A DNA stretch of 64,000 nucleotides, taken from positions 558,001 through 622,000 of the forward strand of contig CAUYUJ010000259.1 in assembly GCA_963575745.1 (NCBI GenBank), in the 5' to 3' direction. The DNA is from Prorocentrum cordatum. Its lineage: Eukaryota. The position numbers and the translations under genes were made by a program. Under the pieces are notes generated by a model. That model worked only from the letters and a program-made list of their open reading frames with translations. It was not told the origin of the DNA and ran no database searches. Below, piece by piece: positions 8,479 to 43,300 of the stretch. How positions within the stretch are numbered: position 1 is the first letter of the stretch; every line of letters starts with the position of its first letter.

Positions 8479-8479
8479 T

Positions 8480-9195
<716 letters not shown>

Positions 9196-26764: not shown

Positions 26765-27250
26765 TTCACTGATAGGGGGCGGGTCGTTTTTTTCAATGTT
26801 GTTTTTCTTTCGTTTCAGCGTCGCACACATTTTTTTTTTTTTTTTTTTTTGTTTTTTGTTTTTTTTCTTTTCCAAAGCAATTGTACGAACTGCACTGATT
26901 GCGAGCGGGTCGTTTTCAAAATGTGGGTTTCGCTTTAGCGCTGTGTGCATAGTTTGATTTTACTTGCAAGAGGTCCACGGATCCCCATGGTCGACGTACG
27001 AAACAATGCGCGTTGGAAAAATGTTGGATTATGAGGGCGCAACATGTACGTTGATTCGCGGTGTTGAAGTGTCAAGAACATTGTCTGGCATGACTCAGGA
27101 TCGTCAACACGCAACATTCAGATTGATTCGTGGCGTTGGAGTCCCGACAACATGTTTTGACATGCTTCAGGGTTTTCAAATGGATGTATTCCAACGACGC
27201 AGCTCCGTCAGTGAAGATGGCCCCGCTATGCGGCGAATGGAAAGGGAGTT
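26765..27250 (+). repeat. AT-richer dispersed repeat with ~60-bp internal periodicity (second copy 31480-32260)
   Basis: gcgggtcgttttcaaaatgtgg units and the tail ga.tcaggatcg..acacg.aaca.tcag...tcgtggcgttg are shared. Confidence 0.75.
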
Positions 27251-27589
27251 TTGGGGGACGGTTTATTCCAACATCGTGGAGGTTTGTTGGGTTTACACAG
27301 GTCCTCCTTCTCCTCCTCCCGCCCCCCCCCCCGTCCATGGATCGCGAGTTCGGAAAGAGCGTATTCTACCGTTGCTGGTGGAAAACCGAGGGGGGTCAGT
27401 GAGGGTTCCCAGCCCGTCTCCCCCCTTCGAAAACCGGGGGCGGTCAGTACCGGTTCGACCATCCCCCTCCCAATCCATCGCGAAACGGAGAGGGTCATTA
27501 CCGGTTCGAAACCCCCGTCTCCATCGAAACCGGGGGGGTCACTCACTACCGGTTCGAGCCCCCCCCCCTCACCGTCGGCAATCGATTTT

Positions 27590-28590
27590 CGCTCCTCGGG
27601 ACAGTTGGACAGTGGTGCGGATATTGGGACTGGTGGGAACGGCGGTGGTGGGGACAGTGGTGTGGAGACAATGGGACAGTGGTGCGGACAGGGGGGGGAC
27701 GGTGGTGGTGGTGGGGACAGCGGTGAGGGGGACAGCGGGACAGTGGTGTGGGGACAGTGGGACAGTGGTGGGGCCGGTAGTGGTGGGGACAGTGGTGAAG
27801 GCGGTGATGAGGACGGTGGTGAGACAGTAGTACAATGGGGAAAATGGTGGGGACACGGGGACAGTGGGACAGTGGTAGGGACAGTGGGGACACTCGGACA
27901 GCACAGTGGGACAATGGCGGGGACAGCGGGGACACTGGGACAGTGGTGGGAACAGTGGGGACAGTGGGACACCGTGGGGAAGGTGGGGAGGGAGAGTGGG
28001 ACCGTGGTGGGACAATGGTGGGGAGAGTGGGGACATTGAGACATTGGTGGGGGCACTGGTGGGGACAGTGAGAACAATGCTTGGAACAGTGGGGACAGTG
28101 GGACAGTGGGACAGTGGTGGGGACTGTTGGACAGCGGGGGGGACGGTGGTGGTGGGGACATCTGGTGTGGGGACAGTGGTAATGTGGTGGGGACAGTGGT
28201 GGGGACAGTGGTGGTGGGGACAGTGGTGAGGGCGGTGGCGAGGACGGTGGTAGGACAATGGGACAGAGGTACAGTGGGGACAGTGGCGGGGACAGTGGGG
28301 ACAGTGGTGGGAGCAGTGGGACAGCACAGTGGGACAGCGGCGGGGAGAGTGGGACAGTGGGACTGGGGACAGTGGGGACAGTGGGACAGTGGTGGGGACC
28401 GTGGGGAAAGTGGGGAGAGTGGGACCGTGATGGGAACAGTTGTGGGGACAGTGGGGACAGTGCGACAGCGGCGGGGGCACTGGTGGGGACAGAGGGGACG
28501 GCGGCGGGAACAGTGGGGACAGTGGTGGTGGGGACAGTGATGCTGGGGACAGCAGTGGGGGATATGGTGCGGACGGTGGTGGGGACCCGG
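27590..28590. repeat. GGGACAGTG-type minisatellite
   Basis: Direct inspection. Confidence 0.95.
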
Positions 28591-29403
28591 GAGTCGTTTG
28601 CCGGCGGTGAGAGTGGGGGGGTGGTTCGAACCAGTAGTGCCCCCCCCTGGTTTTCTGGAGGAGAGGGGGTTTTGAACCGGTAGTGACCCCCTCCGGTTTT
28701 TTTTGAGGGGGGTGGGGGGTCGAACCTCGGTTTTCCGGAAGGGGGGGGGGGAGGCGGGAGGGGTTAGGGGAGGGGGGGGGTTGCCGGGGGGGAAGGGGGG
28801 GGGGGGGGGAACCCCGGGTTCCGGAGGAAAATGTGGGGGATAATTTTCCATAGTAAAGCGGCGGTGGATCATGCTCTCTACTAGTTCGGGAGTGGGGGTC
28901 CTGGCTGGCGGTGGGGGTGCGTTGTGCTGTCCTCGCGCAAGAAAGGCATTTCGTCGCAGTGGGCAGATCCCGCCTTTGCAGCACGGCTTTCGGCTGTGGG
29001 TGGCCCGACCTCTTCCCGCCGCCACGGAGCAACCAGTTCCTGAAGAGGAGGAGGAGGAGGAGGAGGAGGTGGAGGAGGAGGAGGAGGGAGAGGAGGAGGA
29101 GGAGGAGGAGGAGGAGGAGGAGGAGGAGGAGGAGGTTGGATGAATGGGGCAGGAGGGCGGGGGATGCAGGGTCGGGTGCGGACTTGAGGTGGCGTGGCTC
29201 TTGGGCTTCTGGGCGGACTTGAGGTTGGTTCGCTGGGGCCCTCCACTGGCCCTTGGCGAACAGTTTCCCTCTGGACCTGCGTGCTTCATGCCTTTGCCTC
29301 GTACAGCCCCTCTCCTGCCCGTCTTTGCCATTTGAGCAGCTGGTTCGATGGCATGTGCCACCTGACCTGAGCGGACACCCCGAGGACCTCGTAGAGGTTA
29401 CTC

Positions 29404-29972
29404 ATGTTCACGCCAGCCTCTCTCGGCCATGGGCGCCGAGGAGCCTGCTGCCGGCGGGCGAGGTTCGAGGACGGCATCGACCGCTTCACGCTGAGGTTCG
29501 CAGACCCGATGCGGGAGGACGGCTTTGCTCACGCCCACAAGGCGCCCCTGTGCAACTACACGACGCTGGCTATGGTCGCCCTTGTCGCCTCCAGCTTCCT
29601 GGGTGGCCTGATCGCCCACAGGTTCTGGGACAACGCCCAGTACCCCACGGCGGAGGCGAGGGAGCTCAGCAGGTGGCAGCTGCGCATCGGCATGATGATG
29701 ACCACACCCTGCGCCCTCGCCCTCGGGTCTGGGATACTGCTGGCCAGGTATAATATCATCAGCACGCTTGGGTTAGAAATCATCGTCGTCTCTGCCAGCA
29801 CCTGCTACATGATAGTGATGGTCATCATCCCGAAGCACTACATGGCCCGACTCTTCGGCCACGGCGACCCCGAGGACATCTGGGGCGTGGACCTGGGCGG
29901 CACCGACGGCCAGACGGTACTGTACATCGACTGCGTGGTCACCGCCTTGCACCTGCTGCTGCCCATCCGCTG
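29404..29972 (+). CDS. Kinase gene exon 1 (N-terminus, TM helices)
   Basis: FTLRFADPMRE..., hydrophobic segments; GA donor at 29973. Confidence 0.8.
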
Positions 29973-30340
29973 GATGCCGGAAACTGGAACGTATACATTA
30001 CCAGTGGCGGGTTGTCTTTCAATCCCAGGATTTTTCGAGGGTCGTGGACGACGTCGGGGTGGTGTGGTGTATACTAGTTGTCCCGTTGTCCCGGGGAAAA
30101 CAACGCCAAAGGTATACACCAGGATCCCGCATACACCAGGATCCGTTCTCCTGTGCGAATCAATGCGGGGCCGGAAAAAGCGTCGGTGTACAGTTCGGCT
30201 CCTCAGGATGATCCTCTTCCCCATGGAGGTCATCGCCGTCCTGGCCTACACGGTGCCCGCGCTGCTGCTCGGCAGTCCTGCCATGAACATCCGAGGAAGA
30301 AACAACGGCATAGGCACAAACATTCGGAGGTCCGCTCCGA

Positions 30341-30398
<58 letters not shown>

Positions 30399-33300
30399 CC
30401 ATCACCATCACCATCAGCATCATCAGCATCATCATAAACATTATCAGCATCAGCAGCATCATCAGCATCAGCAGCATCATCAGCATCATCTTCATCATCA
30501 TCACCATCATCATCCCCATGATTATCACCATCATCATCCGCTCACCATTCCAATCCCTACGCCTGGCTATCATTCCAATCATCCTCCGCCTACATGCCCT
30601 TCCTGTGGATCGGCACTGTGCCTCCTGGCGCGCTCCGCGCGCCTCAGCAGGGGAGGTCCGGCGCCGACCTAAGAAACCCGCGTGGACCTTGGGAAGCTCA
30701 CGTTCGGCACTGTGCCTTCTGGCGCGCTCCGCGCGCCTGGGAGGGAAGGTCAGGCGCCGATCTAAGAAACCCGCGTGGACCTTGGGAAGCTCATGCTTCC
30801 CAAACCCCAGTCGCCATGATGTTTTGTTACGACCTCCACCCCCCAGTGTCGGGCCGGACGAGAGGGTCCGGACGAGAGAGCAGGATAGGGAAATCTTCCC
30901 TATCCGTCCTTTCGCACCTCCCCTCGAGGGGATAGGGACCTTCCCCTATCCTTATCCTGCCCTACTTCCCTATCCCACCCTTTTTCCCCACCCTACCCTT
31001 CCCCTACGAAATTTGCCCTGCAGGGCAAATATCGTACACCCCCCTCTGAGGGGGGTGGGGGGGGGGTCACTTGCTGCATGCAGCTGGCCTCGGCCCGGCC
31101 GCCGGGCCCACTCCTCGATAACATGGGCGCCCCTCTCGGCCCCAGGAGGCTCGAGGCGCTGGGGAGTCCAGCCACGGGTGTGCTGATCCCCCCTCTTGGA
31201 CGCCCCCCTCTTGGCCGCCCCCGATGCTGGTCGACCTAAACGGTGTGTTGGCGATTCCGTGGGCCGTAGTCGGTTTGACGACGTTTTCCAGCAGAGGCGG
31301 ATTGAAGAAAAAGCGAGGGAAAGCGACGACAACACTAAACCGAGAAACATTGTTTGCGTCGATCCCTGCTTCTGCTGCTGCTGCTCCTCCTCCTCCATGC
31401 CTTTCCCTTATGAGTACATATATATATATATATATATATACAGATCATCCCTGTCGCACCCCAGGGCCGGTCGAAAGGGCGGGCTGGGCGTTTCGCTTGA
31501 TACTTCCTCACCGTTTATGATCCTGCAGCTCAGAAATTGGCAACAGTTTCACAGATGGAGGGCGGGCCGCTTCAAAATCTGGCTCTCTCTTTCGCGCCGC
31601 GCACATCCGTTGTAAACACTTGCAAGAAGTTGAAAGATTGAGGGCAGGTCGTTTCCAAAATGTGGCTCTCGTTTCAGCGCCGCGCACATTCGTTTCAAAC
31701 ATTTCGCACACAAGTTTCACGGATTGAGGGCAAGTGGTTTTCAAAGTGTGGTTCTCGCCTCAGCGGCGCGCAAATTGGTTTGAGATAGTTGCACGAGTTC
31801 ATTGTGGTTCTCGCCTTGATGGCGCGATCATTCGTTTTGAATGTGCAAGAGGTTCACGGATTGAGCGCGGGTAGTTTTCAAACGATGGTTCTCGCTTTGG
31901 CGTTCCGCACATGGTTGTTTTACTTTTGCACCAGTATCACGGGTCGAGGGCGGTTTCTATTCAAAATTTGGTTTTCGCGTTAGTGCCGCGCACATACGTT
32001 CCAAATATTTGCAAGGGGTTAATCGGTTCTCAGAGTTGACGTACCAGGTATGGTGCGTTGTAAGGATTCCGGATTGTCAGGGCCCAGTATTTACGTTGTT
32101 CTAGGTGTTGAAATCCCAGGGGTGGTGTTTTGGTACGATTCAGGATCGCCTACACGTAACAGTCAGGTTAGCTCGTGGCGTTGAAGTTCTCAGAATGGTG
32201 TTTGGGCACGTTTCAGGACTTTCACACGCTTGTCCCCCAACGGGGCTCATCTTTCAGTGGAAATGAACCCTTGTAGGGGCCTGTGAAGAGTGAGCTAGCA
32301 GGGAGGGTGTATTCCAACATCGTTGCTGGGTCTTGAGTTTGCTCTTCTCCCCCCTCCTCCTGTTCGTCCTATCTCGTGTGCCTCGGCTTGTGAGGACCCC
32401 CCAGACGCTTGTGCCGTTCTTTTCTTCCTCCAACATGGTGCCCTACAATGTCATGGGGCTCTTCCGGTAGCAAACCGTGGGAGCCTGGTACACCCTCGTA
32501 CTCCAGTCTGTTCAGTCCAGAGTGCACTGGCGCCGACTCGCGTCTGCCAATCGATGAGACAGCGCCGGTGCAGCGCCCATGGAGCGTCGACTCCGCATCG
32601 TATGAGCGCCGATTCGCACGAGCCAACAAGACATGGCGCGGGACACCCAGGCCAAGGTCCACAGGCATCCCAGGCCGCGGTTCACAGCATGAGCTTGCTT
32701 GTTGCAGGTCGGCCTGTGCGGTGTTCCCGGTCTGCCCAGCGACGCTCCGAACCGCGACGTCATCGGGTCACGAGGGATGGCTTGAGAGGGAAGGCGTGGG
32801 ACGGGGCCAGGACGAGGACAAGTCCGTTCAAGCGCGTTTCAGAACTCTCTCACAGCGTTCCATAGCGCTCGGAGCAAGCCGCGGCGCCCGAGACATCCTA
32901 CAAAGCCGCCAGATTTCAGAGATCCTCGATGAATCCCCACGCGATGTTAGATTCGTCCTGGCTTCGTCTCAGATGTCTTGCAAGGAAAAAACACATGCTA
33001 TGTCGGCCACGCGCAGATGGGGGTAGACGGGAGGGGGGGAGGCTTCTCATAACACTCCTACTTCTTGGAAGGCGCGGGCTTTATCTATAGATGTAAGGCA
33101 GGCATCTTCTAAGAAGCAGCCTCGTTCTAAGAAACAGCTTCCCTTCCCAGCCAGGAGCCAGATTAAGGGGAGCCAGTTAGAAATTGAGCCCCGCTGCCCA
33201 AAACATGGTCGGAATCACAAAAACAGGTCTGGCGTAGCTAGTGTTTTTCGGGTGACGGCAGTTCTGGTTTGGGCCAAGCGCCGGAGGCCTCGGGGAGAGC

Positions 33301-36300
33301 TCCCCGCGTGCGGAGGCGCACGCGGGCCGCGATCGCCAAGACGTCCCTTGGCGGGTGGGGGAGGAGGGAGAGGGAGGAGGAGGAGGGAGGAGGGAGGAGG
33401 AAGGGGAGGAGGAGAAGCGCGTAGAGGAGGAGGAGGAGGAGGAGGAGGAGGAGGAGGAGGAGGGAGGAGGTGGAGGAGGAGGAGGAGGAGGAGGAGGAGG
33501 AGGGGAGGAGGAGGAGGGGGAGGAGGGTTGGCAGTCCCCCGGTACACATCGCTAGACCAGGTCCCACCCAAGAGCCAGTCCTGCCAACGCCCGACCCCGA
33601 GCGCGCCGCCGGAGACGGCTTGGGAGGCTCCCACGGGTTGCCGCAGAAGGCTCCTGCTGCTCACGGTCTTCGCGGCCATAGGGCGGCGGTCCTTCGAGAG
33701 GCAGGAGCCCAGTGTCGTGTAACCCATCCCCATCCCCATCCCCATCCCCATCCCCACCATCCCCACCACCCCAGATATGCGCCTCGAAGCTCGAAGGGAA
33801 CAGCCGATGACCCCATCAAGGGAGATAAATCGGCCAGTGGTGCCCAGGCCACGCCCGTGGGGATAGTCTAGGCCTTCTAGATGGGGTCGGAGTAGATGGG
33901 GTCGGAGGATCGCGCCGCATCGGCGATACATCGCCGATGCGGCTCGATGCGGAGCCCGATTTCTCCACCGACGTCGCCGATGCGTCGCCGACTTCGGCGA
34001 TGCATCGTCGGTGCATCGCCGATGCATCGCCGATGCATCGCTGATGCATCGCCGATGTATCGCCGATGCAGCGCGATCCTCCGACCCCATCTACTCCGAT
34101 CCAATCTAGGAGGCCTCTAGATAGGGATCGGTTAAACGATGCTCAGGAGCGCCTGCTGTTCGCGGGGCTCCTGCTGGAGAAGCAGATGCGTTTCCAGGCC
34201 GAGTTCGAGCTGTCGAAGCTGGGGAAGCTGGGCAGCCGCGAGGCGCGGAGGAGGAGCAGCTTCCAGAGGAGGAGGGGGCTCCCAGACTTCGAACCGCCAA
34301 AGGACTTTCGTTTTGGTCCCCCCCCCTTGTTCTCTTCGGCGGTGACTGGGACTGGTCCTAAAACCTCCTCCTCCCTCCCTCCCTCCCTCCCTCCCTCCCT
34401 TACTCCCTCCCTCAGTCCCTCCCTCCCTCCCCCCCCCTCCCTCCCTCCCCCTCTCCCGTGTTTCTGGCACCGAGGTTTGCTGCCGCAATCCTGGGTAGCC
34501 GTCCCGCCCCCACAAGAGGAGGCAGACTGGTGGTCTGAGGGAGTCGAGGTTTTCGAAGATAACTGCTTCGGCGTGGGCTCTCCGTTGGCCCCCCTGTGCC
34601 TTTTCGGGGACGCGAGCGGGGGCGAAGATACTTCCGATCCCAGGCTCCGCAGAGTAGGGTGTGGAATTGCACAGTATTCTGACATTTCAGATAATATGCA
34701 GCTTGTTGCTTCTGTTTGGGGAGGCCTCCCTGGGCCCGTCCAGACAGTTGCCAGGGGTGAACTTTTCAGTTTCTTATCAGCGCTGATCGGTGCTGATGGT
34801 GTCACGCTCTATACCACAGATAATTCCAGTGTGTGCTCAGGATGGTATTGCGGGCGGGCCTTCGCCCCAGAGGGGGAGAACGCGGACCTTTGGTATCAGG
34901 TAGGTCAGGTGCTCAGACGAAAACCGACCTTATCCTGCACGGTCCTTTTTGTTCACTCCCACCAGGAGGCCCGAGACGTACTCCAGGGTAAAGCACCTCT
35001 GTATTTGACGGTAGGTAATGCAGCTGCTGATAAGTTGGCCGAGGCAGCGGCTCGTTTAGTACGCATCCCAGCCTCTGATAGATCGAAGGTTTTCTTGAAT
35101 GAGAAGATGGCTTTCGCCGTCCGCATGCGTATTTTACTGGCCACAGTCGAGACTTTAAAAGCCGAGGCCGCCCTGGCGGCCGAAGAGCCCCGAGGAACCC
35201 GTGTCAGGAATCCAGGGCCCAGGCCATTAGCGCCTCTGGTTTGTAAAGAGTTTTCGACCCTGCATACGCTGTCTGAAAACGGTCTTTCTTGTTTGAAGTG
35301 TAGGAGCTCCACCACTAAAGGTATGCGCAAGTTTTGGTTGGAAACCCCATGCTTTGACCTGAGGGCTATAGATGGCGTTTTGCTCAGACCGCCCCCCCGT
35401 TGCAGGGTGCACATCTGTGGGGGGTGGGCTGACGACAGTCACACATTACAGTTTCACGCTGGGCTGGGGATTTGGTTCTGTGGCACTTGTGGAAGTTTTG
35501 CGGCCCAACAGTTGGCCCAACTCGGAAAGAAGTGCGACGGCAGAGCCACAGGTAATCGTGCTGATTATTTAAAGAATATTGAACGGGGGATCTGGCCTAA
35601 AGCTTATAGCAAAGCTGACAAGGCCAGAAGAGCGGCTCGTTCTCTTTAATCGTCATCGTAACCGACACAGTCGCAATATCCGTAACTCCGTAACTCCCTC
35701 CCCCTTTCCCTCCCTCCATCTCCTCCTCCTCCTCCTCCTCCTCCTCTTTCCTCCTCTTTCCTCCTCCTTCTCCCCCCACATCTGGGGCCATGGCGGTCGT
35801 CTGCTTGCAGACTGCAGCCGCCAGGGCTTTTTTGATGATGGTCCATCAATCCCTCCTCCTCCTCCTCCTCCTCCTTCTGGACTTCTCCCCCCTAAGGAAT
35901 GGCATGAGAAGAAGATGGAGGAGGAGGAGGAGGAGGAGCAGGAGGAGGAGGAGGAGGGAAGGAGGAACAGGAGGAAGAGGAGGAGGAGGAAGGAGGAGAA
36001 GCAGGAGGAAGAGGAGGAGGAAGGAAGGGGATGAGGAGGAGGATAAGCCGCGGAACAAAATAATTAGCTACCACCTATTGTTGGGAACCCAGTCCTTCGA
36101 CAAGGCAGCCGGAATAATGTTAATTGTTTATCCTCTATTTGGGGGGGGGGTCAAGATAATTTTTCAGGGGTAGTCAAAGGATGAAAGGGCTCCCACACAG
36201 CTTCTTGTCGTTCTTTATCATGTTGGTGGGGCCTTCTGGGAGGCCGTCGTCGCCACCGCTGGATGCGCCCCACAGTTCTGGTCAGAGCGCAACCTTGGAG

Positions 36301-39300
36301 CTGTCCTGTGAGTGGGGGTATCGGTAGCTCCTGGCTTCCGCAGACATGCTCGCGCCGTGGAAAACAACAGCCAGGCGCGAGGTGTCTGACCGGGTTCGGC
36401 ATCCAGGGGCCTTCGCAGGACCTCGGGACGGTCAGCGAAAGCGACTCGCGATGAAGCGCCGGTCACGGACACGGGGTCGGGATTTCTGGGGACCGCGCAC
36501 TGCAAGCACCAGGACGTTGCATGCCTGGTGTGCCGATGTCGCTGCTCGTTCTGGAGAGGCCCCGTCTCCAGGCCCTCAAATGGGGTTGAAGCAGACGAGG
36601 TCTTCGGATCGCGCCGCATCGCCAAGGCATCGGCGATGCGGCGCCGATGCATCGCCGACGTCGCCGATGCATCGCCGACGTATGGGCGACGTGTCGGCGA
36701 TACGGCGCGTTCCTCGGACCTCATCCTCTCGGATCCCCTTTGGGATGTCTCCACCGTCGCCGTGGCCGTCCTCCCTCCCAGGTCCTGCCCAGAGCGCACC
36801 CGGTGGCAGAGGGTCCGGGGAGCAGCGGGGTGCGTCGGCACCGACGTGGTTTCCCCCAAAGAAGGCCGCGGTGGTGTCGGACCGCGGCTCCGACGAGGTG
36901 TCGTGCCCGGGGACGACCATCCGGGTGTTGTTCGGGGTTTCGGGGGCGGCAAAGAGGGGGGTGATGAGTAGGGGTGGGTGAATAGCATGGCACGGGCCAT
37001 GGTATTTCCCCAGATTTCATGGCGCCTCTTCTTATTTCAATACGTCCCTGGCCACCCCCCTGGGCCGCGCACATGCCGCCGGCCATGATTTGCGCCCCTC
37101 CCCCTCTTGGACGCCCCCCTCTTGGCCGCCCCCGAGCATTGTCTTTACCAGCCTGGAGCAAATCCCTATCCCTATGGTTGGTATCATCTTACCTCGATGC
37201 CGATCTTGAGGAGTCCCTCAGTTTCTGATGGCGCATACCTATGATTATGATTTTCCAACCTACTTTAGCTTTGATCACCAGAAAGAATTTCGGGCACCGG
37301 AAAAGTACCGAAACTCTAGTGTGTTCGCCTTTCGGGCCCTGGGAGACGCTCGTCCGACGTTGTTTCGACATTGTTTCGACACTTTCTTGGGTGCTCGAAA
37401 TTCTTTCTGGGATGTGGTCCTTAAGTACGATGGGAGCAACATCACCTTCTGATTGGTATCATCTTTCCTCGATGCCGATCTGAAGGATTCCATCAGTTTC
37501 TGAGGGCGCATCCCTCACATGGTCTACATGGTCTTTGGCTTGTCAGTCTCAGGGGTAAGGATATGTTCGGGGCTGGTTACTGTCCTGGTCAAGGGTGCCC
37601 CTGGTTTTTGGCTCTCTTTTGAAGCTCTCGGCTCTCAGGGCCTTCTTGGTTGGTGGCCTCCAAACGGTGTGATTACCAATCCGTTTGGGAAGTCAGTGGA
37701 GCTTCGGGGTCACAACACGAATTTGGGAAGCGGGGTGTTCTCCGAGGATGTCTCGGGCGGTTGGGGCCCCCAGAGTCCCAAGACCGTGCGGTGACGGACC
37801 GCGCGGTGAGGACGTTGGAGATTCCGAGATCGCCACGCGGTCCGCCACCACACGATTTTGGGACGCCCCATATTGGCCTCGTGAGGGGTGCGTTGGAGGC
37901 CATCTGGGCATCTATGGGGATCCTGGGGACACCTTTGGGCCAGGACCACTCCAAGCAACGCCCGAGCCATGAGCGCGGCGGCCTTCGACGGTGGCGCGGG
38001 GCATGCGTCCCTGGACCAGATCCGCTCCATAGGCCAGCGGGAGCACTGGCTCATCTCGGAGGAGAAAACATGCATACACATATACTTTCGGAGCTCCGCT
38101 ACCCGTCCCTCGTTTTTCGCTCCTTCGGTGCCTCATGGTATGCCCTCGTCGCCGCGGCACGATTCGCCTCGAAATCCTGGTCCAAGGGCACCCAAGGAGA
38201 GTCCCGCAGAGTACCAGTATCAGTACCAGCCTCGGATCGGCGCTGGGGCCCCCCTTGGCGGCGCCTCCGTCTCGCCCTCGGTGCGGTCCCCGCGTGCCAA
38301 AGGAGGGGTGGCCCAGCGCCGACCCGAGAGATCCAGCGCGCAGCTCCGAGAGTGTATGTTTGTGCCATGGTTTGTTCCTCCATCATCGGCAGCGGGGAGG
38401 TGGAGCTCTTGGCTGACAGGGTCCTGGGCGTCGGCGGCTTCGGCATCGTCGCCGCTGGCCTGTACCACAACACCCTCGTGGCGGTGAAGGCGCCGAAGCA
38501 GGACATCCTGAGGCTGGCCCGACCAAAACGTTGCTCTGGCAATGTCGTGGATAGCTTCCGTCTACTTGCTCTTTCCGCTCTGGGGCACCCCATTTGCCAG
38601 CCAAGACTTGGGAGTTGCGCCAAAGCGCTCGGCAACCGGTCGGACCGTTTTCGTCCTCGAACGCCCCGAACACGCAAACGGGACGCACGCGAAAAGAGCG
38701 CCGGTTTGGTCGCCCCCCCGCGCGAGGCGGGGCGCCATGGGCTCGAGCCTGCCCGAGCTCTGCAACGAGCTGAGGGTCCTGCGGCGCATCCGCCATTGAT
38801 GGGCCTGTCCTCCACCACCACCACCATGAGTTGGAGGGGGGAAGAAGGAGGAGGAGGAGGACGACTAGGAGGAGGAGGAGGAGGTGGAGGAGGACCCCCT
38901 CCCCCCTCCAACTTGTGGTGGTGGTGGCAAACGGGCCCATCAGCCATCCCAACATCGCCTTCCTGTACGGGGCGTGCATGGACGCGGCCCTCAGCAAGCT
39001 GAGCCTGGTGCTCGAGTTCGTGGACGGCGTGCCCCTGGGCGCGTTCGTCAGCGGCATGCACCCGCACGCGGAGGGTCCAGAGGCCAGGGGCCCGCCGGCC
39101 AGCGCCTCCGCGCGGTGCCTCATCGTGTCCGACATCCTGAACGTGCTCCGCTACCTCCACTCGAGGCTCAAGCAGTGGCGAAGCGTCTCGGCTCGCCTAC
39201 AGGCCTACCAAAGGAACTGTTCTAAGACCCTTTTGTGGTCTCAGCGACGTGCTCTCAGAACATTTCTGGCTGGGAAAGGCTTGTTTTAGCACAGAAGGCT

Positions 39301-40025
39301 TGCGTTCTGAGAACATTGTGTTTTTCTTAGGACATGTTGGGGTTCTAAGAGCATTCCGTGGTAGGCCTGTAGACATGCCGGGACGGTCGGTCCCTGCTCA
39401 AGAGGCAGCCTGTCATAGTCCACGGAGACCTGAAGGACTCCAACGTCTTCGTGGAGGAGCGGCGCGGCAGGACACCGCTTTTGTTTGTCTCCCTTGGCGA
39501 TGCCCCGGGCGTGCCTCACAGTGGTACGGGGGGATGGGGGGGAGGGCGCCCGCCACGTCACGGTTCCCGCCAGCGGCGTCTGGGAGTGCTCATGCCAACT
39601 CCCAGACGGGGCCGGCGCGAGTCGCGAGGTGACAGGAGGGGTGCGTGAGGCGGGGCGGGTCACGGCAGTGATCGCGAGCATCGCAGGATCCTGCAGGATC
39701 CTGCAGGATCTCGCAGGATCCTGCAAGGCCCGACGGACCCGGGCTTGGGTTGACCCGGGCCAGTGCGTCCCCGGGAGTGATAGAACAACGGGCTCTATAG
39801 GGGGGGCCAGATCTGGTACCACGCCAAGCTGCTCGACTTCGGGCTCTCGCGCCTCGTCACCCGGCGTGCCGTGCCCCTCGGCGGCACGCTGCGCTGGATG
39901 GCGCCCGAGCTGCTCACGGGGGTGGCCGTCCCCCCCGCCGCGGCCGCCGACCTGTACTCTTTCGGGCTGCTGGCCTACTTCATCGTGACCGGGCGCCGTC
40001 CTTTCGAGGGCGCGAGCAGGGACAG
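29404..40025 (+). CDS. Multi-pass membrane protein kinase (TKL/Raf-like domain), at least 12 exons; 3' exons (subdomains X-XI) not securely located
   Basis: The spliced product has ~6 hydrophobic helices, then RFQAEFELS, EHWLIGSGEV, LGVGGFG, VAVK, NELRVLRRIRHPNI, HGDLKDSN, DFG, GTLRWMAPE, ADLYSFG, TGRRPF. All exon phases are consistent with no stops. Start codon uncertain. Confidence 0.9.
30207..30290 (+). CDS. Kinase gene exon 2 (TM helix)
   Basis: cag|G ATG ATC CTC.. = MILFPMEVIAVLAYTVPALLLGSPAMN. Confidence 0.85.
30343..30540. repeat. (CAT)n microsatellite inside intron 2
   Basis: Direct inspection. Confidence 0.97.
30610..30793. repeat. ~92-bp tandem duplication
   Basis: tcggcactgtgcc...ctaagaaacccgcgtggaccttgggaagctca occurs twice. 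Confidence 0.9.
31480..32260 (+). repeat. AT-richer dispersed repeat, copy nested in intron 2
   Basis: Homologous to 26765-27250. Confidence 0.75.
32437..32457 (+). CDS. Kinase gene exon 3 (21-nt micro-exon, MVPYNVMG)
   Basis: Lies exactly between the right TIR/direct repeat of intron 2 and the left direct repeat/TIR of intron 3; keeps the frame. Confidence 0.8.
33650..33704 (+). CDS. Kinase gene exon 4 (LLLLTVFAAIGRRSFERQ)
   Basis: AG|G acceptor, GA donor. Confidence 0.85.
33870..34116. mobile_element. Palindromic MITE with AGGCCT termini and CATCGCCGATG core; copies at 36570-36750 and 45649-46124
   Basis: ~45-bp TIR aggccttctagatggggtcggagtagatggggtcggaggatcgcgc. Confidence 0.85.
34147..34242 (+). 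CDS. Kinase gene exon 5 (ERLLFAGLLLEKQMRFQAEFELSK..); 3' end at 34242 (GC donor) or 34218
   Basis: Direct repeat CAGGAGC at the acceptor; coiled-coil-like sequence. Confidence 0.8.
34457..35700 (+). mobile_element. 5'-truncated LINE 3' end encoding RNase H and C-terminal Cys motifs, inside intron 5
   Basis: FGDASGG..DPRLRR, QTVARGEL, TDN, NADLW, VHSH, GNAAADKLA; open frame to TAA 35649; visibly lower GC than its flanks. Confidence 0.88.
36865..36914 (+). CDS. Kinase gene exon 6 (AAVVSDRGSDEVSCPGT)
   Basis: AAG|G acceptor; GA donor with direct repeat GACCA shared with 37944. Confidence 0.7.
36942..37132. mobile_element. MITE with TIR GGGGCGGC.AAGAGGGGG; related pieces at ~31190-31222, ~41577-41660 and ~46125-46310
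   Basis: The ends are reverse complements. Confidence 0.7.
37655..37868 (+). repeat. Dispersed ~215-bp repeat (second copy 45664-45880, nested in an AGGCCT MITE)
   Basis: Shared gttctccgaggatgtc.cgggcgg.tgggg..gtccca..ccgtg.ggtgacggacc..caccacacg.ttttgggac. Confidence 0.8.
37944..38055 (+). CDS. Kinase gene exon 7 (..SLDQIRSIGQREHWLI)
   Basis: cag|G acceptor; pre-kinase WxI motif. Confidence 0.85.
38388..38512 (+). CDS. Kinase gene exon 8 (subdomains I-II)
   Basis: VLGVGGFGIV..VAVK. Confidence 0.92.
38727..38796 (+). CDS. Kinase gene exon 9 (subdomain III, alpha-C Glu)
   Basis: ELCNELRVLRRIRH; GC-AG intron 38513-38726 with direct repeat GAGGC. Confidence 0.9.
38948..39165 (+). CDS. Kinase gene exon 10 (subdomains IV-VIa)
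   Basis: PNIAFLYG..LVLEFVDG..LRYLHS. Confidence 0.92.
39405..39470 (+). CDS. Kinase gene exon 11 (catalytic loop)
   Basis: IVHGDLKDSNVFV; GC-AG intron 39166-39404. Confidence 0.92.
39801..40025 (+). CDS. Kinase gene exon 12 (subdomains VII-IX); 3' boundary approximate
   Basis: AKLLDFGLSR..GTLRWMAPE..ADLYSFG..TGRRPF; GA-AG intron 39471-39800. Confidence 0.92.
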
Positions 40026-40319
40026 GGTGCCAGTCCTCAAGATTGGTTTGTATGCCACACCCTCCCCACCCCGGTCAGATTCCACCACCCGCGGCCACAG
40101 TCAGTATTATACAACCACCACGCCCCATGCAGATACGTCTAGACGCTTCGCGTAACCCCACCAGCCTGTCGCGGCCCGACTAGTGTTCGGGCGGCTTTCG
40201 ACCTGCTTCGCGAGCCCGCAGACCAAAAAAGTAACCCATCAGCCCATCCAGAAACGATGCCCAAGGGAATTGCCTCGATCAGGGAAGTGGGCGGCACACA
40301 GAGGAAGGGTCCCCCAGTG

Positions 40320-43300
40320 GAGGCCTCTTTGAGCGTCTTGGGGGCCTCTGGGCGGTCCAGGACGCTTGTAGAGCGTCTTGGGTGCCTCGGAAAGCTTCTT
40401 GGGGCCTCTTGGAGGTTTCTGGGGAGCCTCTTGGAGGCCGTCTAGGCGCCTCTTGGGGCCTCTTAGGGCCTCTTGGGGCCGTCTGGGCGCCTCTTGGGGT
40501 CCTCTTGGGAGCCTTGGGAGCGCTCTTGGAGCCTTCTTGGGCCATCTTGGAACCATCTTGAGACCTCGGATGGCCATCGGAAGCGAAAAGGCGAGACAGC
40601 CAAACATTAGCCTGGCGACGGGCCCTACCGCAAGTATAAATCTAATCTTCGCCCGCGCTCCCTATGGGGCCACGAACCGTGTGAGGGGCGTGCCGACATG
40701 CGCGGCGGGGCACACAACGCGAGCGAAGACGGTAGGTCTGTGTGCGAGAGACTGAGAGCGCGTTTGTCTGATTGTGGATGGGTTTGCGCGCGTGAATCTA
40801 CGTGCGTAAAAAATCGACGCCCATGTCGGCGCGCCTCTCACGAGGATCGCGCCTGTTTCCTTCCCGTTATTTAATCGCTTCGCTCATTCCGCCGGCCCGT
40901 ATTGTGCCATCGCAGGCGTTTGCTTGCGCGTTCGTGGCCTCTTGGAGCCTCGGTGGGGCCGTTTGGGGCCTCTTGGCGCCTCTTTTTAGGCCTCTTGGAG
41001 AACTCGGGAGGCCTCCAGGGGGCCTCCTGAGCTCTCGTGACGGTCTCTTGGGGGGCTTTCGGCGGGCTCTTGGCGGTATTTGTTGGTCCTCTTGGGGCCT
41101 GGGGCCTGACGTTGTTGGTCCTCTTGGGGCCTCACGGGAGCTTATTGGGGCGTCTTGGGGGTGTCTTGGAGAGTCTCTTGGGGCCTCTTTCGGGGTCCTG
41201 GGCGCCTTCTGGGGCGGAGGGCTCGATTTTTCAGTTCTCGGTTTCCTTCTTGAGCCCCTCTTGGGCCTGTGAGGACCCGCTGTTCAAGATGCACATCGCG
41301 GGGGCGACTAAAGACAGGCGTGGTGATGCTTCGTTGTTCTTGGCATCGTTCTATCAGGGGCACTTCAAGGACCTGCCGAAAGAGGCTGCCCGAGAAGTGC
41401 GAGATCCTGTGTCCGTCCACAGCCCTGCGGCTGACGAGACCTGCCGTGCTTGCCGCGGGGAGCCGTGCACGAGCGGTGTGGCGCCAGGACGTCCGACTTG
41501 CCCGAGGGTCGGCGGACGCCTCGCCGACCGCCTCTGGCCTGATATCAAGATCGATGGGCCACGAGGCGATACGCGCGGGCGGCAGAGAGGGGGGTGATGA
41601 CTAGGGGGACGTCATGGCGGGGGCCATGATATCTCCCCAGATTTCGTGGCGCCTCTTCTGATTTCACTGCGTCCCTGGATCTCCCCCTAGGCCGCGTCTT
41701 GGGGCCTCTTGGTCCGCCTTGGGCAGCACTTGGGCCGTCTGGGAGGCGCTCTTGGGCCGCTCCGGGGCCGTCTTGGGAGCCTCGTGGGCCGTCTTGGAGC
41801 AGTCTTGAAGGCCTCTTGAGCCCTCTTGGAGCGTCCGGAAGCGAAAAGGCCAGAACGCCAAAAAACATCGAACAAAACCAATGAAAATCAACGATGTTGG
41901 CAACTTGGGGCCCTCTTCGGAGGCCTCTTGGAAGGCCCTTGGAGCGTCTTGGAGGCCTCTTGGGCTGTCTTGGGGCCATCTGGGGCGTCTTCGGGCGATC
42001 GTTGGCCGTCTCGGGCCTCTCTTGGACCGTCTAGAAAGCTTCTCGGGGCCCTTTTGGACCGATCTGGAGCCCTCTTGGACTCCGAAACAGAACTCCGGCA
42101 TCTCTGACCCGACCTTGCCGGGGTACTTTTCGCCCGGGGACCCCCAGGGGCCGCCCCGCGCGCGCGAACTAGAAATATTGTTAACCAGGCGCCGGAGATC
42201 TTAGCACGCCCTGGCCCGTTGGGCCGGCGAATTTTTCTCCTTGTTTGTCCGTGCGCGCCCACGTCCAAGGGTGCGGGCGCGGCGCCGCACGGAGCCCCCG
42301 CGACTCGCGCAGGTCGCCCCGAAGGGGTCCCGGCGACGCGCGCGGGTCGTCCGCTGCGCGGGGCAGAGCGAGCGAGCAGGCTGGCTCCCGCCTGGGATGC
42401 GCGGCCCGAAAGCGGCCTCAACACGTCGAATACGACGAAACACTTCCAGAAACCGAAAGTCGCTGCTATGCGAACTCTTCCACTGGGCCGCCACACGATT
42501 TCCGCCACAGAGACCTTAGACGGAGCTCCCTATGGGGACACGAAACGTACGAGGGGCGCAATGGGGCCACGAAGTGTGTGATGGGGTGTGCCAGAATGGG
42601 TCGGCGGCGCCATGCGGGCTGCGCCAGTGTGACCGTCGGTGGAGCTACCTATGGGGCCACGAAGCGTGTGAGGGGTGTGCCAAAATGGGGCGGCGGCGCC
42701 ATGCGGGCTGCGCCTTTAGGGCCTTAGGTGGAATTTCATTATGGGGCCACGAAACGCTGTACTGAGTGGATGAAACGCAGGGAGGAGGTTGGGTGGGGGA
42801 GGAGGAAAAAGGAAGGAGGAGGAGGAGGAGGACGAACACGCGGGGACCGTCTCTTCAAAACGAGGACCCAACACCACAGGATGGTAGGGACAAACATTGA
42901 TATTCGCAAGGTGTTGGACAGATGTTGGCCTGTTCGGGGCCTCCTGGGGGGGGTTCTCTGGCCACTTGGAGCCGTCTTGGAACGGTCTTGGGGCCTCTTG
43001 GAGCATCGTGGGGGCAATCTTGAGGCATCTTCGGATCGATTGGGCCATCTTGGGGGTCATCCTGGGCTCCCCCAGGCGCTCCCCCCACCCCCCAGGAAAC
43101 CAACACGTGGCCAAACCAATCGTAAAATCAGTGATTCTTTGGTTTACGCCGCGCCGCCGGCCCCTTGGGGTTCCTGGTAGGTCTCTCGGGGGCCTCCTGG
43201 CAGCACTTTGAGACCTTTTGGGGGCCGTTTTGGGGCCGCTTTTGGGCCTCTGGCCCCTTGGGTGCTTCTTGGGGGCTGGATCTCGCGCCGCGCCTCTCGG

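What the first reader, a model, noticed from the sequence alone, without database searches (positions are those of the whole stretch)
29973..39800. Intact kinase gene whose introns are TIR/direct-repeat elements, several with no spliceosomal ends: candidate structure-guided non-canonical splicing system
Seen: 11 interruptions, nearly all with complementary ends and a short direct repeat at the exon junction (GGATG, AACAT, GGCTC, CAGGAGC, GACCA, TCATC, GAGGC, GCCAT, GAGGC, AGG). Eight can be read as GC..AG or GA..AG. Three (30291-32436, 38056-38387, 38797-38947; none a multiple of 3) have no GT/GC/GA..AG register at any position within the direct repeat, yet precise removal restores the frame and conserved motifs. 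The exons have no stops or frameshifts, while the TIRs are diverged and some inserts hold nested elements, so the gene seems to have stayed under selection long after insertion. Established: introner transposons create introns in algae and dinoflagellates, and inverted-repeat non-canonical introns are reported in the parasitic dinoflagellate Amoebophrya. Inference: a stem formed by the intron ends, not splice dinucleotides, specifies excision here, alongside ordinary GC/GA-AG introns in the same transcript. DNA-level excision (IES-like) is an alternative.
Basis: partly seen in the sequence, partly recalled or inferred. Interest (0 to 1): 0.92.

Follow-up and report, generated by a model that had tools for sequence, protein, structure and literature searches.

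The report
Transposon introns without splice signals
A kinase gene of the red-tide dinoflagellate Prorocentrum cordatum is interrupted by transposon-derived introns, four of which lack any usual splice signal yet are absent, to the base, from its RNA, a behaviour so far described only in a parasitic relative.

Summary
Window 29404-40030 (+) carries the first 12 exons of a membrane-anchored protein kinase of Prorocentrum cordatum. The species name comes from two public protein models that are 100% identical to its exons.

All 11 introns have a 3-7 nt direct repeat at the junction. Seven have terminal inverted repeats above controls. Seven have a dinoflagellate GC/GA..AG|G register. Four have none: i2 30291-32436, i6 36917-37966, i7 38056-38387 and i9 38797-38947.

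RNA from three studies, as raw reads and contigs, skips i6, i7 and i9 exactly, along with the GC/GA..AG introns i8, i10 and i11. i2 is supported only by collinearity with paralogues.

This is the same kind of intron as the Amoebophrya "introner element" non-canonical introns (Farhat 2021). My searches found no report of it in P. cordatum, whose annotation allowed only GT/GC/GA donors and breaks this gene into fragments. That the stem guides excision is inferred. An insert-free gene copy is not excluded.

The parts
29404..40030 (+). First 12 exons of a P. cordatum gene for a kinase with a hydrophobic (probably membrane-spanning) N-terminal region. The 3' exons are not in the window.
   Evidence: The spliced frame is open for 561 codons. 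It is collinear with three paralogues of 56-68% identity. Exon 12 matches Pkinase at 3.4e-11. tblastn finds no exon for paralogue residues beyond about 570. The start ATG at 29404 is taken from public model P0041.
29977..30210 (+). Intron 1, 234 nt, repeat GGATG. Canonical register 29973-30206, GA..AG|G. No significant inverted repeat.
   Evidence: Registers. Inverted-repeat score 12, reached by 47 of 110 controls. Public model P0041 uses this junction.
30291..32436 (+). Intron 2, 2146 nt, repeat AACAT, non-canonical. Flush terminal inverted repeat, same element family as intron 7, swollen by nested repeats.
   Evidence: 0 of 6 registers are GH..AG. Inverted-repeat score 26, reached by 1 of 110 controls. 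Duplex -35.0 kcal/mol, reached by 0 of 110. Its 5' end aligns to the 5' end of intron 7 with score 30, against a mean of 11.3 and sd 2.8 over 220 pairs. Nested tandem and dispersed repeats. Removal is supported only by paralogue collinearity. P0041 reads through its 5' junction.
32462..33653 (+). Intron 3, 1192 nt, repeat GGCTC. Canonical register 32458-33649, GC..AG|G. Strong flush inverted repeat.
   Evidence: Inverted-repeat score 29, reached by 0 of 110. Duplex -45.0, reached by 0 of 110.
33709..34150 (+). Intron 4, 442 nt, repeat CAGGAGC. Canonical register 33705-34146, GA..AG|G. Holds a nested palindromic element at 33870-34116.
   Evidence: Inverted-repeat score 25, reached by 1 of 110. 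Palindrome arms 93% complementary, with copies at 45884-46125 and 36567-36736. Folding z -16.6.
34241..36862 (+). Intron 5, 2622 nt, repeat AGGC. Canonical register 34243-36864, GC..AG|G. No inverted repeat. Holds a 534-aa ORF and simple repeats.
   Evidence: RNA loose ends before 36863 equal the end of exon 5 at 34240 (4 raw reads in X23, 1 contig in X18). Inverted-repeat score reached by 47 of 110. The ORF has no Pfam match.
36917..37966 (+). Intron 6, 1050 nt, repeat CCAT, non-canonical. Strong RNA terminal duplex.
   Evidence: Joint 36916>37967: 4 raw reads with 4 starts in X23, 1 contig each in X18 and X2. 0 of 5 registers are GH..AG. Duplex -37.0, reached by 0 of 110. DNA-level inverted repeat weak, reached by 23 of 110.
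38056..38387 (+). Intron 7, 332 nt, repeat TCATC, non-canonical. Flush terminal inverted repeat of about 44 nt.
   Evidence: Joint 38050>38383: 1 raw read in X23, 1 contig each in X18 and X2. 0 of 6 registers are GH..AG. Inverted-repeat score 39, reached by 0 of 110. Duplex -36.8. Folding z -3.9. A contig of the probable DNA run X1 covers 38044-38209 unspliced.
38515..38728 (+). Intron 8, 214 nt, repeat GAGGC. Canonical register 38513-38726, GC..AG|G.
   Evidence: Joint 38509>38724: 4 raw reads in X23, 1 contig each in X18 and X2. Registers. Inverted-repeat score 21, reached by 1 of 110. Duplex reached by 9 of 110.
38797..38947 (+). Intron 9, 151 nt, repeat GCCAT, non-canonical. Nearly the whole intron is one hairpin.
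   Evidence: Joint 38791>38943: 4 raw reads with 4 starts in X23, 1 contig each in X18 and X2. 0 of 6 registers are GH..AG. Inverted-repeat score 52, reached by 0 of 110. Duplex -53.1. Folding z -3.1.
39168..39406 (+). Intron 10, 239 nt, repeat GAGGC. Canonical register 39166-39404, GC..AG|G. Strong inverted repeat.
   Evidence: Joint 39162>39402: 1 contig each in X18 and X2, 0 raw reads in X23. Inverted-repeat score 35, reached by 0 of 110. Duplex -42.6. Public model P0004 uses it.
39469..39798 (+). Intron 11, 330 nt, repeat AGG. Canonical register 39471-39800, GA..AG|G. No significant inverted repeat.
   Evidence: Joint 39468>39799: 2 raw reads in X23, 1 contig in X18. Registers. Public model P0004 instead places a GC donor 6 nt downstream, which adds two residues that the paralogues lack.

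Best explanation
The locus is an expressed Prorocentrum cordatum kinase gene whose introns arose from insertions of DNA transposons with terminal inverted repeats and target-site duplications (introner or MITE type).

Where the duplicated target contains AGG[C/A], or GG[C/A] after an element ending in A, the duplication supplies an ordinary dinoflagellate GC/GA..AG|G pair. Seven introns are of this sort.

Where it does not (AACAT, CCAT, TCATC, GCCAT) there is no splice dinucleotide pair. The RNA nevertheless lacks exactly 'element plus one copy of the duplication'. I take this to be removal from the transcript.

In these four introns the two ends form a long helix that closes 0-2 nt from both repeat copies. 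I infer that this helix brings the two cut sites together and marks them. I think the most likely agent is a spliceosome with relaxed demands on the terminal dinucleotides, as was proposed for Amoebophrya.

Shown: the RNA lacks these stretches to the base, the terminal helices are there, and an AG buried in the helix is passed over.
Inferred: that the stretches are cut out of RNA made at this locus, that the helix is the determinant, and that the spliceosome is the enzyme.
For: RNA evidence:
- One 487-nt contig carries the joints over i6, i7, i8 and i9, with 1 other letter in X18 and 0 in X2.
- Raw reads of a third study (X23) show i6 (4 reads), i7 (1), i8 (4), i9 (4) and i11 (2).
- The reads lie mostly in one direction, as a stranded library of a + strand transcript would give.
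- Unique intron stretches have depth 0 in all three RNA runs (38515-38635, 39241-39361, 39483-39603), while neighbouring exons have about 7 in X23. The runs therefore show RNA rather than contaminating DNA.
- Depth inside i7 in X23 is 0.2-0.7 against 6.9 in exon 8.

Protein evidence:
- The spliced frame is open for 561 codons.
- It aligns with three paralogues without a gap at 10 of 11 junctions. At junction 5 there is a one-residue gap against 1 of the 3.

Intron anatomy:
- 0 of 23 registers of the four introns are GH..AG.
- All 4 have duplexes of -35 to -53 kcal/mol, stronger than 110 of 110 mismatched controls.
- i6: the in-frame GA..AG|G alternative is unused. Its AG at 37942-37943 lies within the stretch that pairs as the 3' arm.
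- i2 and i7 are one element family.
- i2 has since taken up nested repeats, which points to long tolerance of the insert.

Precedent: Farhat 2021.
Against: - No DNA run with useful coverage of this locus was available. A gene copy or allele with empty insertion sites and identical exons would give the same RNA.
- Part of exon 12 is present, 100% identical, on a second scaffold (P0016), so some duplication or mis-assembly exists.
- i7 rests on one raw read plus two contigs, and contigs drop rare forms.
- i2 was not tested with RNA.
- Strong flush stems also occur in the canonical introns i3 and i10, and 4 of 7 canonical introns manage without a strong stem. The stem is therefore neither specific to the non-canonical class nor generally needed.
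- i6 and i9 each have a CC..AG register, so a normal 3' AG may still be read there.
- All four repeats contain CAT. That could be a sequence signal rather than a structural one.
- Nothing here bears on which enzyme acts.
Confidence: 0.6

Rival explanations
1. The RNA removal is the same, but a separate non-spliceosomal pathway does it. That pathway would recognise the hairpin, cut at its base and ligate the exons, as is suspected for the nonconventional introns of euglenids, which leave as circles.
For: - Both cut sites sit at the foot of a 35-40 bp helix of -35 to -53 kcal/mol, a poor substrate for 5' and 3' splice-site recognition.
- No dinucleotide is shared by all four in a way known for any spliceosome.
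- The unit removed is exactly 'element plus one duplication' in each case.
- The review PMC11282704 (passages) describes the euglenid parallel.
Against: - The euglenid consensus (CAG at +4..+6, CTG at -8..-6) is met in 0 of 23 registers.
- Canonical introns i3 and i10 carry the same kind of helix and have proper GC..AG|G ends, so a spliceosome here apparently copes with such stems.
- No back-joined (circular) read over i7 or i9 was listed, but a polyA or cDNA library would hardly show one.
- Fritillaria shows that a U2 spliceosome can evolve to take non-canonical ends (review).
Confidence: 0.22
2. The copy in the window is a transposon-disrupted, untranslatable copy. The RNA comes from another allele or recent duplicate that never received the four non-canonical inserts, so there is no unusual splicing.
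For: - A precise empty site would hold exactly one copy of the duplication, which is what the RNA shows.
- Dinoflagellate genomes are rich in duplicates.
- P0016 on another scaffold repeats the last 44 codons of exon 12 at 100% identity.
- The probable DNA run X1 covers almost none of the exons, so the absence of an empty-site contig means little.
Against: - Across the 857 nt of exon that its contigs cover, X2 shows 0 other letters.
- The inserts look old. The arms of i7 and i9 differ at several places, i6's arms match at only 13 of 17, and i2 holds nested insertions. A copy that split off before these insertions should differ at silent sites.
- The searches with exon 1 found only this locus's own model at 100% identity. 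The next best is 68%.
- The window's exons have no stop or frameshift in 561 codons.
- The same anatomy is spliced genome-wide in Amoebophrya.
Confidence: 0.1
3. The joints are artefacts of reverse transcriptase jumping between the two direct repeats across the hairpin during library preparation.
For: Short direct repeats flanking a stable hairpin are the classic setting for template switching. That is my recollection of the literature; I read no paper on it here.
Against: - If the mature RNA kept the insert, reads from inside it should be about as deep as in the exons. In X23 the interior of i7 has 0.2-0.7 against 6.9 in exon 8.
- The joints recur in three studies.
- No contig or read bridging an unspliced junction was listed for the RNA runs.
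- Retaining i7 (332 nt) or i9 (151 nt) would shift the frame of a conserved kinase domain.
Confidence: 0.03
4. The inserts are cut out of the DNA in the expressing nucleus, as with ciliate internal eliminated sequences.
For: Excision of 'element plus one duplication' is what precise transposon excision gives.
Against: - One contig of the probable DNA run X1 spans the exon 7 / intron 7 border unspliced (38044-38209, 0 other letters).
- No joined form was seen in that run, although its coverage is very thin.
- Dinoflagellates are not known to separate a germline from a somatic nucleus (recalled).
Confidence: 0.02

Closest known systems
Non-canonical introns / introner elements of Amoebophrya sp. 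A25 and A120 (Farhat et al. 2021, PMC7789003; passages read)
   Same: - RNA-supported introns with no shared terminal dinucleotides.
- Inverted repeats of 8-20 nt joining the 5' and 3' ends in a hairpin.
- Direct repeats of 3-5 nt across the exon/intron border.
- MITE-like origin.
- Canonical introns with the same repeats also occur.
   Different: - The host is a free-living, large-genome core dinoflagellate, not a compact-genome parasite.
- The 'normal' introns alongside are GC/GA..AG|G, whereas Amoebophrya has GT-AG and under 3% GC/GA (review PMC11453091).
- Introns reach 2.1 kb with nested repeats, where the Amoebophrya analysis was limited to 40-1000 nt.
- The stems are longer, about 35-45 nt.
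- Whether U1 snRNA is missing here, as reported there, could not be tested.
- Here there is one gene, not a genome-wide count.
Canonical introners of Polarella glacialis and Symbiodiniaceae (Roy et al., preprint 10.1101/2020.10.14.339549; parts 1-2 of 4 read)
   Same: - Introns made by transposons with inverted repeats and target-site duplications.
- Splice sites recruited from the duplication. Their class 14 uses a duplication of AGGH, and their class 12 uses 5-nt NAGGH / NNAGG.
- Introns i4, i5, i8, i10 and i11 here fit that pattern, as do i1 and i3 with GG[A/C].
   Different: Every class described there ends in GH..AG. The four introns i2, i6, i7 and i9 do not.
Identically repeated intron boundaries of dinoflagellates (Mendez et al. 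2015, PMC5032977; abstract and sections 11 and 15 read)
   Same: A repeat of 2-9 nt (2-11 in the paper's discussion) at both intron borders that occurs once in the mRNA, which makes the exact cut ambiguous.
   Different: Those repeats always hold GG and usually AGG. The repeats of the four non-canonical introns hold neither.
Nonconventional introns of euglenids (as summarised in the review PMC11282704; passages read)
   Same: - Non-canonical borders.
- Terminal complementarity that brings the ends together.
- Repeats like target-site duplications at the junctions.
- They co-exist with conventional introns in one transcript.
   Different: - The euglenid CAG / CTG positions are met in 0 of 23 registers.
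- The lineage is unrelated.
- Circular excision products were not testable here.
Non-canonical (AG-AN) MITE-derived introns of Fritillaria borealis (review PMC11282704)
   Same: Transposon-derived introns with non-canonical ends that are removed efficiently, there by an adapted U2 spliceosome.
   Different: The Fritillaria introns share a dominant pattern. Here no dinucleotide pair is common to the four introns.

Membership tests
Amoebophrya-type introner-element non-canonical introns | Intron supported by RNA whose ends are not a canonical splice pair | tested here: met
   i6, i7 and i9 are skipped exactly in raw reads and contigs. 0 of 17 of their registers are GH..AG. i2 was not tested with RNA.
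Amoebophrya-type introner-element non-canonical introns | Inverted repeat of 8-20 nt between the two intron ends, within about 30 nt of the ends, able to form a hairpin | tested here: met
   All 4 of 4 non-canonical introns have duplexes stronger than 110 of 110 controls, closing 0-2 nt from the repeats. At DNA level 3 of 4 are significant and i6 is weak.
Amoebophrya-type introner-element non-canonical introns | Direct repeat of 3-5 nt overlapping the exon/intron borders | tested here: met
   AACAT, CCAT, TCATC, GCCAT. Random expectation for >=4 nt is 0.025.
Amoebophrya-type introner-element non-canonical introns | Members form repeated families spread over the genome | tested here: inconclusive
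   i2 and i7 are one family. No further copy of any intron end was found in the 64-kb window. No genome is held for this window.
Amoebophrya-type introner-element non-canonical introns | U1 snRNA not detectable in the organism | not testable with these tools
   No genome is held. There is no Rfam hit in the window, but 64 kb says nothing about the genome.
Canonical dinoflagellate introners (Roy et al.) | Splice pair GH..AG recruited from the duplication and/or the element end | tested here: not met
   Met by 7 of 11 introns (i1, i3, i4, i5, i8, i10, i11), all with G after the AG. Not met by i2, i6, i7 and i9.
Euglenid nonconventional introns | CAG at +4..+6 pairing with CTG at -8..-6 | tested here: not met
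   0 of 23 registers.
Euglenid nonconventional introns | Excised as full-length circles, after the conventional introns | not testable with these tools
U12-type AT-AC introns | 5' end ATATCCTT-like, with a TCCTTAAC-like branch site (consensus recalled) | tested here: not met
   An AT.. register exists in all four (AT..AC, AT..CC, AT..TC, AT..CC). The next bases are CCGAGG, CCGGGT, CTCGGA and TGATGG, not ATCCTT.
Protein kinase superfamily (Pkinase / PK_Tyr_Ser-Thr) | Match to the Pfam kinase profiles above their curated cut-offs | tested here: met
   Exon 12 alone: PF00069 at 43.5 bits (cut-off 31.7) and PF07714 at 32.1 bits (cut-off 23.1). The paralogues carry both families in the precomputed annotation.

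The most novel reading that the evidence does not exclude
Core dinoflagellates, not only the parasite Amoebophrya, have an excision route that ignores terminal dinucleotides. It reads the hairpin of an inserted inverted-repeat transposon and removes 'element plus one target-site duplication' from the transcript. This would amount to an RNA-level undo of a transposon insertion, carried out by machinery distinct from, or added to, the ordinary GC/GA-AG spliceosome.

If so, any such transposon that lands in an exon is an intron from the start. That would help explain the extreme intron load of dinoflagellates. It would also mean that current gene catalogues built on GT/GC/GA-AG rules are systematically fragmented.
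Probability: 0.22. Interest if true: 0.9.

Novelty: new member of a known kind. Interest (0 to 1): 0.62.

Why it matters
**Reach of the phenomenon.** Farhat et al. called the Amoebophrya introns without precedent in eukaryotes and linked them to an apparent loss of U1. Finding the same anatomy spliced in Prorocentrum cordatum, beside ordinary GC/GA-AG introns of one transcript, suggests the ability is older or more widespread in dinoflagellates. It also need not depend on a reduced parasite spliceosome.

**Annotation.** The P. cordatum gene models were built with tools that accept only GT/GC/GA donors.
- This gene appears in the public set as at least three fragments of 236, 204 and 309 aa.
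- One fragment reads through a non-canonical junction into a false stop.
- If such introns are common, the count of 85,849 genes and the large share of 'dark' proteins are partly artefacts.
- The authors' own figure, that only 79.7% of acceptors have AGG against at least 93% in other free-living species, may point the same way.

**Intron origins.** The locus gives a directly testable case in which one transposon insertion becomes either a canonical or a non-canonical intron according to the sequence of its target site alone.

Tried and rejected
- **Whole genome:** none is held for this window. I could not make genome-wide counts, search for U1, or look at the paralogous loci.
- **Earlier findings of the scan:** three look-ups gave nothing.
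- **Rfam on the 64 kb:** 0 matches.
- **Next exon after 40030:** the 30-nt RNA loose end and its two halves have no match in the window, and tblastn with the paralogues finds none. The missing part is on another scaffold.
- **The look-up of sequencing runs:** no run held more than 0.17 of the sampled words. I read nothing from those shares alone. Only the four runs I laid are used as evidence.
- **Read laying stretch:** I laid only 36700-40310, because the tool turns away stretches with a long repeat and the upstream introns hold simple-repeat arrays of 170-200 nt. Introns 1-4 are therefore untested by RNA.
- **Other joints:** 39472>39880, 39473>39817 and 37297>37361 carry extra letters or very short sides. 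The remaining listed joints (36967>37114 in X23; 37136>39168, 39274>39375, 39402>39685 and 40166>40266 in X1) lie in or run between repeat-rich intron stretches, and all but 39274>39375 and 39402>39685 also carry extra letters. I read all of them as paralogues or repeats and did not use them.
- **Variant 38477 C>G:** it comes with a loose end at 38457 that diverges upstream, so it is a paralogue, not an allele of this locus.
- **Pfam on 16 further ORFs of the window:** only a PIF1 helicase and a sub-threshold DUF6570 matched.
- **Pfam on exons 1, 8 and 10 alone:** nothing at E <= 0.01.
- **Euglenid and U12 consensus:** not met.
- **dN/dS:** not computed, because only the paralogue proteins were available, not their coding DNA.
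- **Literature:** searches returned no report of non-GH..AG introns in Prorocentrum or any other core dinoflagellate. The library lacks most subscription journals. Of the published Current Biology version of Roy et al. I saw only the preprint, parts 1-2 of 4. Only 2 supplementary files of the P. cordatum paper were held as text, and its Tables S1/S2 on introner elements were not seen.

Full report
**What is there**

Reading the region and sliding every candidate junction through its equivalent registers gives 12 exons between 29404 and 40030 on the + strand, separated by 11 introns. Joined, they make an open frame of 561 codons. The frame starts with a hydrophobic, probably membrane-spanning region and continues into a protein kinase domain. 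Exon 12 alone matches Pfam Pkinase at E 3.4e-11.

Every intron has a short direct repeat across its two borders:

| Intron | Repeat |
|---|---|
| i1 | GGATG |
| i2 | AACAT |
| i3 | GGCTC |
| i4 | CAGGAGC |
| i5 | AGGC |
| i6 | CCAT |
| i7 | TCATC |
| i8 | GAGGC |
| i9 | GCCAT |
| i10 | GAGGC |
| i11 | AGG |

Eight of 11 repeats are 5 nt or longer and 10 of 11 are 4 nt or longer. For random placements of the same intron lengths in the window the chance per junction is 0.011 and 0.025 (20,000 trials).

**Whose gene it is**

A search with exon 1 found three kinases of 683-828 aa that their source names as Prorocentrum cordatum, at 56-68% identity. These are paralogues.

Searches with exon 12 and with exon 1 at other length ranges found two proteins 100% identical to the window's exons, on one contig of 663,409 nt, again named P. 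cordatum. The window is therefore from that species. This fits its G+C of about 0.6 against the published genome mean of 59.7%.

The two identical proteins are fragments:
- P0041 (236 aa) follows exon 1, intron 1 and exon 2. It then reads straight through the 5' border of intron 2 for eight codons, jumps to 33646 and ends out of frame in exon 4.
- P0004 (204 aa) starts at a methionine inside exon 10, uses intron 10, and places the donor of intron 11 six bases further down than the RNA does. It then reads on into intron 12 to a stop.

A third protein, P0016 (309 aa), lies on a different contig. It begins with the last 44 codons of exon 12 at 100% identity and carries the missing C-terminus. The window itself has no exon for that part.

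**RNA test**

I laid four public runs on 36700-40310. I chose this stretch because the upstream introns hold long simple-repeat arrays, which the tool turns away. The runs were raw reads of one RNA run (X23), contigs of a polyA RNA run (X18), contigs of a probable RNA run (X2), and contigs of a probable DNA run (X1).

One 487-nt contig, present in both X18 and X2 with 0-1 other letters, joins 36916>37967, 38050>38383, 38509>38724 and 38791>38943. Support for each joint:

| Intron | Joint | Bases skipped | X23 raw reads | X18 contigs | X2 contigs |
|---|---|---|---|---|---|
| i6 | 36916>37967 | 1050 | 4 | 1 | 1 |
| i7 | 38050>38383 | 332 | 1 | 1 | 1 |
| i8 | 38509>38724 | 214 | 4 | 1 | 1 |
| i9 | 38791>38943 | 151 | 4 | 1 | 1 |
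| i10 | 39162>39402 | 239 | 0 | 1 | 1 |
| i11 | 39468>39799 | 330 | 2 | 1 | 0 |

- Loose ends before 36863 (4 raw reads in X23 and one X18 contig) spell the end of exon 5 at 34240, which fixes intron 5.
- Unique parts of introns 8, 10 and 11 have depth 0 in all three RNA runs, while the exons beside them have about 7 in X23. What is seen is therefore RNA, not DNA carried along.
- In X1 one contig of 166 nt covers 38044-38209 without a difference. That is the exon 7 / intron 7 border unspliced. X1 otherwise covers almost only the high-copy repeats.

**Two classes of intron**

Seven introns have one register that reads GC..AG or GA..AG, and in all seven the next base is G:
- i1 GA
- i3 GC
- i4 GA
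- i5 GC
- i8 GC
- i10 GC
- i11 GA

This is the known dinoflagellate pattern. The splice pair comes from the duplicated target, either AGG[C/A] inside the repeat or GG[C/A] after an element ending in A. Roy et al. described exactly this for Polarella classes 12-14.

Four introns have no such register in any of their 23 registers: i2, i6, i7 and i9.
That reading is in frame, but the RNA does not use it. The RNA uses the CCAT junction 2 nt and 23 nt further down.
- The CCAT junction gives the same length as the paralogues at that point ('PGTT|MSAAAFDG').

Intron 2 lay outside the stretch I laid. Its exact removal restores '..SPAMN|MVPYN..' against '..SPAMSMVPYN..' and '..SPAMNMVLFN..' in the paralogues. 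This support is indirect.

**Terminal complementarity**

I aligned the first 50 nt of each intron to the reverse complement of its last 50 nt. As controls I used the 110 mismatched pairings of one intron's start with another intron's end.
- i2, i3, i4, i7, i8, i9 and i10 score 21-52, and at most 1 of 110 controls reaches each score.
- i1, i5, i6 and i11 do not stand out.

As RNA duplexes of 40 + 40 nt, which allow G-U pairs:
- i2, i3, i6, i7, i9 and i10 reach -35 to -53 kcal/mol and beat all 110 controls (control mean -20.4, minimum -33.7).
- i4 and i8 are reached by 9 of 110 controls and i11 by 15 of 110. i1 and i5 are ordinary.

All four non-canonical introns therefore have a strong terminal helix. 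In each, its closing pair lies 0-2 nt from both repeat copies.

I folded the seven shorter introns whole, with 15-nt flanks and 100 shuffles each. The z-scores are:
- i4: -16.6, mostly due to a nested palindrome
- i10: -5.1
- i7: -3.9
- i9: -3.1
- i11: -2.9
- i1: -0.4
- i8: 0.0

The four long introns were not folded whole.

**Origin**

The layout of direct repeat, inverted repeat, interior, inverted repeat, direct repeat is that of a DNA transposon with its target-site duplication.
- The ends of i2 and i7 are alike over about 43 nt. The score is 30, against a mean of 11.3 and sd 2.8 for 220 cross-intron end pairs. One family has therefore inserted twice into this gene.
- i2 is 2146 nt because it has since taken up tandem and dispersed repeats. 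i7 is 332 nt.
- No other copy of any intron end lies in the window.
- All four non-canonical repeats contain CAT. CAT occurs in 0.042 of 4-mers and 0.063 of 5-mers of this coding sequence. The joint chance is about 1e-5, or about 7e-4 after allowing for 64 possible triplets. I cannot say whether this is a target preference or part of a cut signal.

**How it most likely works**

Shown:
- The RNA lacks 'element plus one repeat copy', to the base, for i6, i7 and i9, beside normally spliced neighbours.
- The product is the conserved protein.
- An available AG inside the helix of i6 is passed over in favour of the helix base.

Inferred:
- These stretches are cut out of RNA made at this locus.
- The helix brings the two ends together and defines them.
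- The enzyme is a spliceosome tolerant of any terminal dinucleotide, as Farhat et al. proposed.

My weights:
- Removal from the RNA by such a spliceosome: about 0.6.
- The same removal by a separate hairpin-reading route, as suspected in euglenids: about 0.22.
- An insert-free identical gene copy as the true source of the RNA: about 0.1.
- Reverse-transcriptase jumping: about 0.03.
- DNA excision: about 0.02.

Against the insert-free copy:
- There are zero differences over the 857 exon bases that the X2 contigs cover, although the inverted-repeat arms have diverged and i2 holds nested insertions.
- No second exon 1 appears in the public proteins.

For the insert-free copy:
- Part of exon 12 is duplicated on another scaffold.
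- No DNA data with real coverage of the locus were available.

Against reverse-transcriptase jumping:
- The interior of i7 is about ten- to thirty-fold shallower than exon 8 in raw reads.

**Comparison with what is known**

- **Amoebophrya sp. A25 and A120 (closest).** More than 60% of their RNA-supported introns lack GT-AG. Of these, 11-30% carry inverted repeats of 8-20 nt and direct repeats of 3-5 nt and are drawn as hairpins that join the exon borders. U1 snRNA was not found. The present introns meet the three structural criteria. Family spread is only hinted at, and U1 could not be tested.
- **Repeated intron boundaries.** These are a general dinoflagellate trait but were described with AGG.
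- **Canonical introners of Polarella and Symbiodinium.** All of them end in GH..AG.
- **Euglenid nonconventional introns and Fritillaria introns.** They are functional parallels in unrelated lineages. The euglenid consensus is absent here.
- **The P. cordatum genome paper.**
  - It counted introner elements in 2.4% of annotated introns.
  - It did so only among introns predicted with GT/GC/GA donors.
  - A reviewer noted, and the authors confirmed, that only 79.7% of its acceptors have AGG.
- **Literature searches.** My five searches returned no report of introns without GH..AG ends in Prorocentrum or any other core dinoflagellate. The library is incomplete, and the paper's introner tables were not available to me.

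**Verdict**

The feature is real and was largely read correctly. It is a new host for a known kind of intron, not a new kind.

It matters for two reasons. It takes the Amoebophrya oddity out of the parasite corner. It also visibly breaks a public gene model into three pieces.

The evidence is one gene, three to four introns and thin read support. The mechanism remains open.

Noticed in passing
window 29404-40152, with proteins P0041, P0004 and P0016: The public P. cordatum annotation splits this one kinase gene into at least three models of 236, 204 and 309 aa. One reads through the non-canonical intron 2 border into a false stop. One starts downstream of non-canonical intron 9 and runs into intron 12.
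   Followed up: yes
window 39898-40029 and beyond 40030: The mRNA goes on after 40030 with '..RRLRRGQPP..', but no such exon lies in the remaining 24 kb. The C-terminal exons, together with an identical copy of the last 44 codons of exon 12, are on another scaffold (P0016). Either the gene is split by the assembly or it is partly duplicated.
   Followed up: partly
window 52372-57707 (+): Helitron-like pair of long ORFs. ORF 56028-57707 matches PIF1-like helicase (3e-14). ORF 52372-54930 matches DUF6570 weakly (8e-4, below the curated cut-off). It lies downstream of exon 12, where intron 12 would run if the assembly is right.
   Followed up: no
window 33870-34116, 36567-36736, 45884-46125: A palindromic element of about 250 nt, with arms 93% complementary and a core of (GCATCGCCGAT)n. 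It is nested in introns 4 and 5, and a third copy lies 12 kb downstream.
   Followed up: partly
window 34045-35649 (+), inside intron 5: An open frame of 534 aa with no Pfam match at E <= 0.01. By eye its middle looks like an RNase H-type fold of a mobile element, but that is a recalled resemblance and was not tested.
   Followed up: no
window 36942-37183, inside intron 6: A very high-copy repeat. Summed word depth in the probable DNA run X1 is about 7,900-9,800, against single digits for the few unique stretches it covers. Related copies lie at 41574-41696 and 46190-46307.
   Followed up: no
window 27226-29397 (-) and 27215-28763 (+): Overlapping open frames several hundred codons long on both strands, in a G/C-skewed, proline/threonine/valine-coding repeat just upstream of the kinase gene. 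They are probably a product of the repeat and not genes.
   Followed up: no
window 38457-38514 and 39472-39912: RNA reads and contigs of close paralogues lie partly on exons 8, 11 and 12 and then diverge (loose ends at 38457, 39472 and 39912; variant 38477 C>G). Several members of this kinase family are therefore expressed together.
   Followed up: partly
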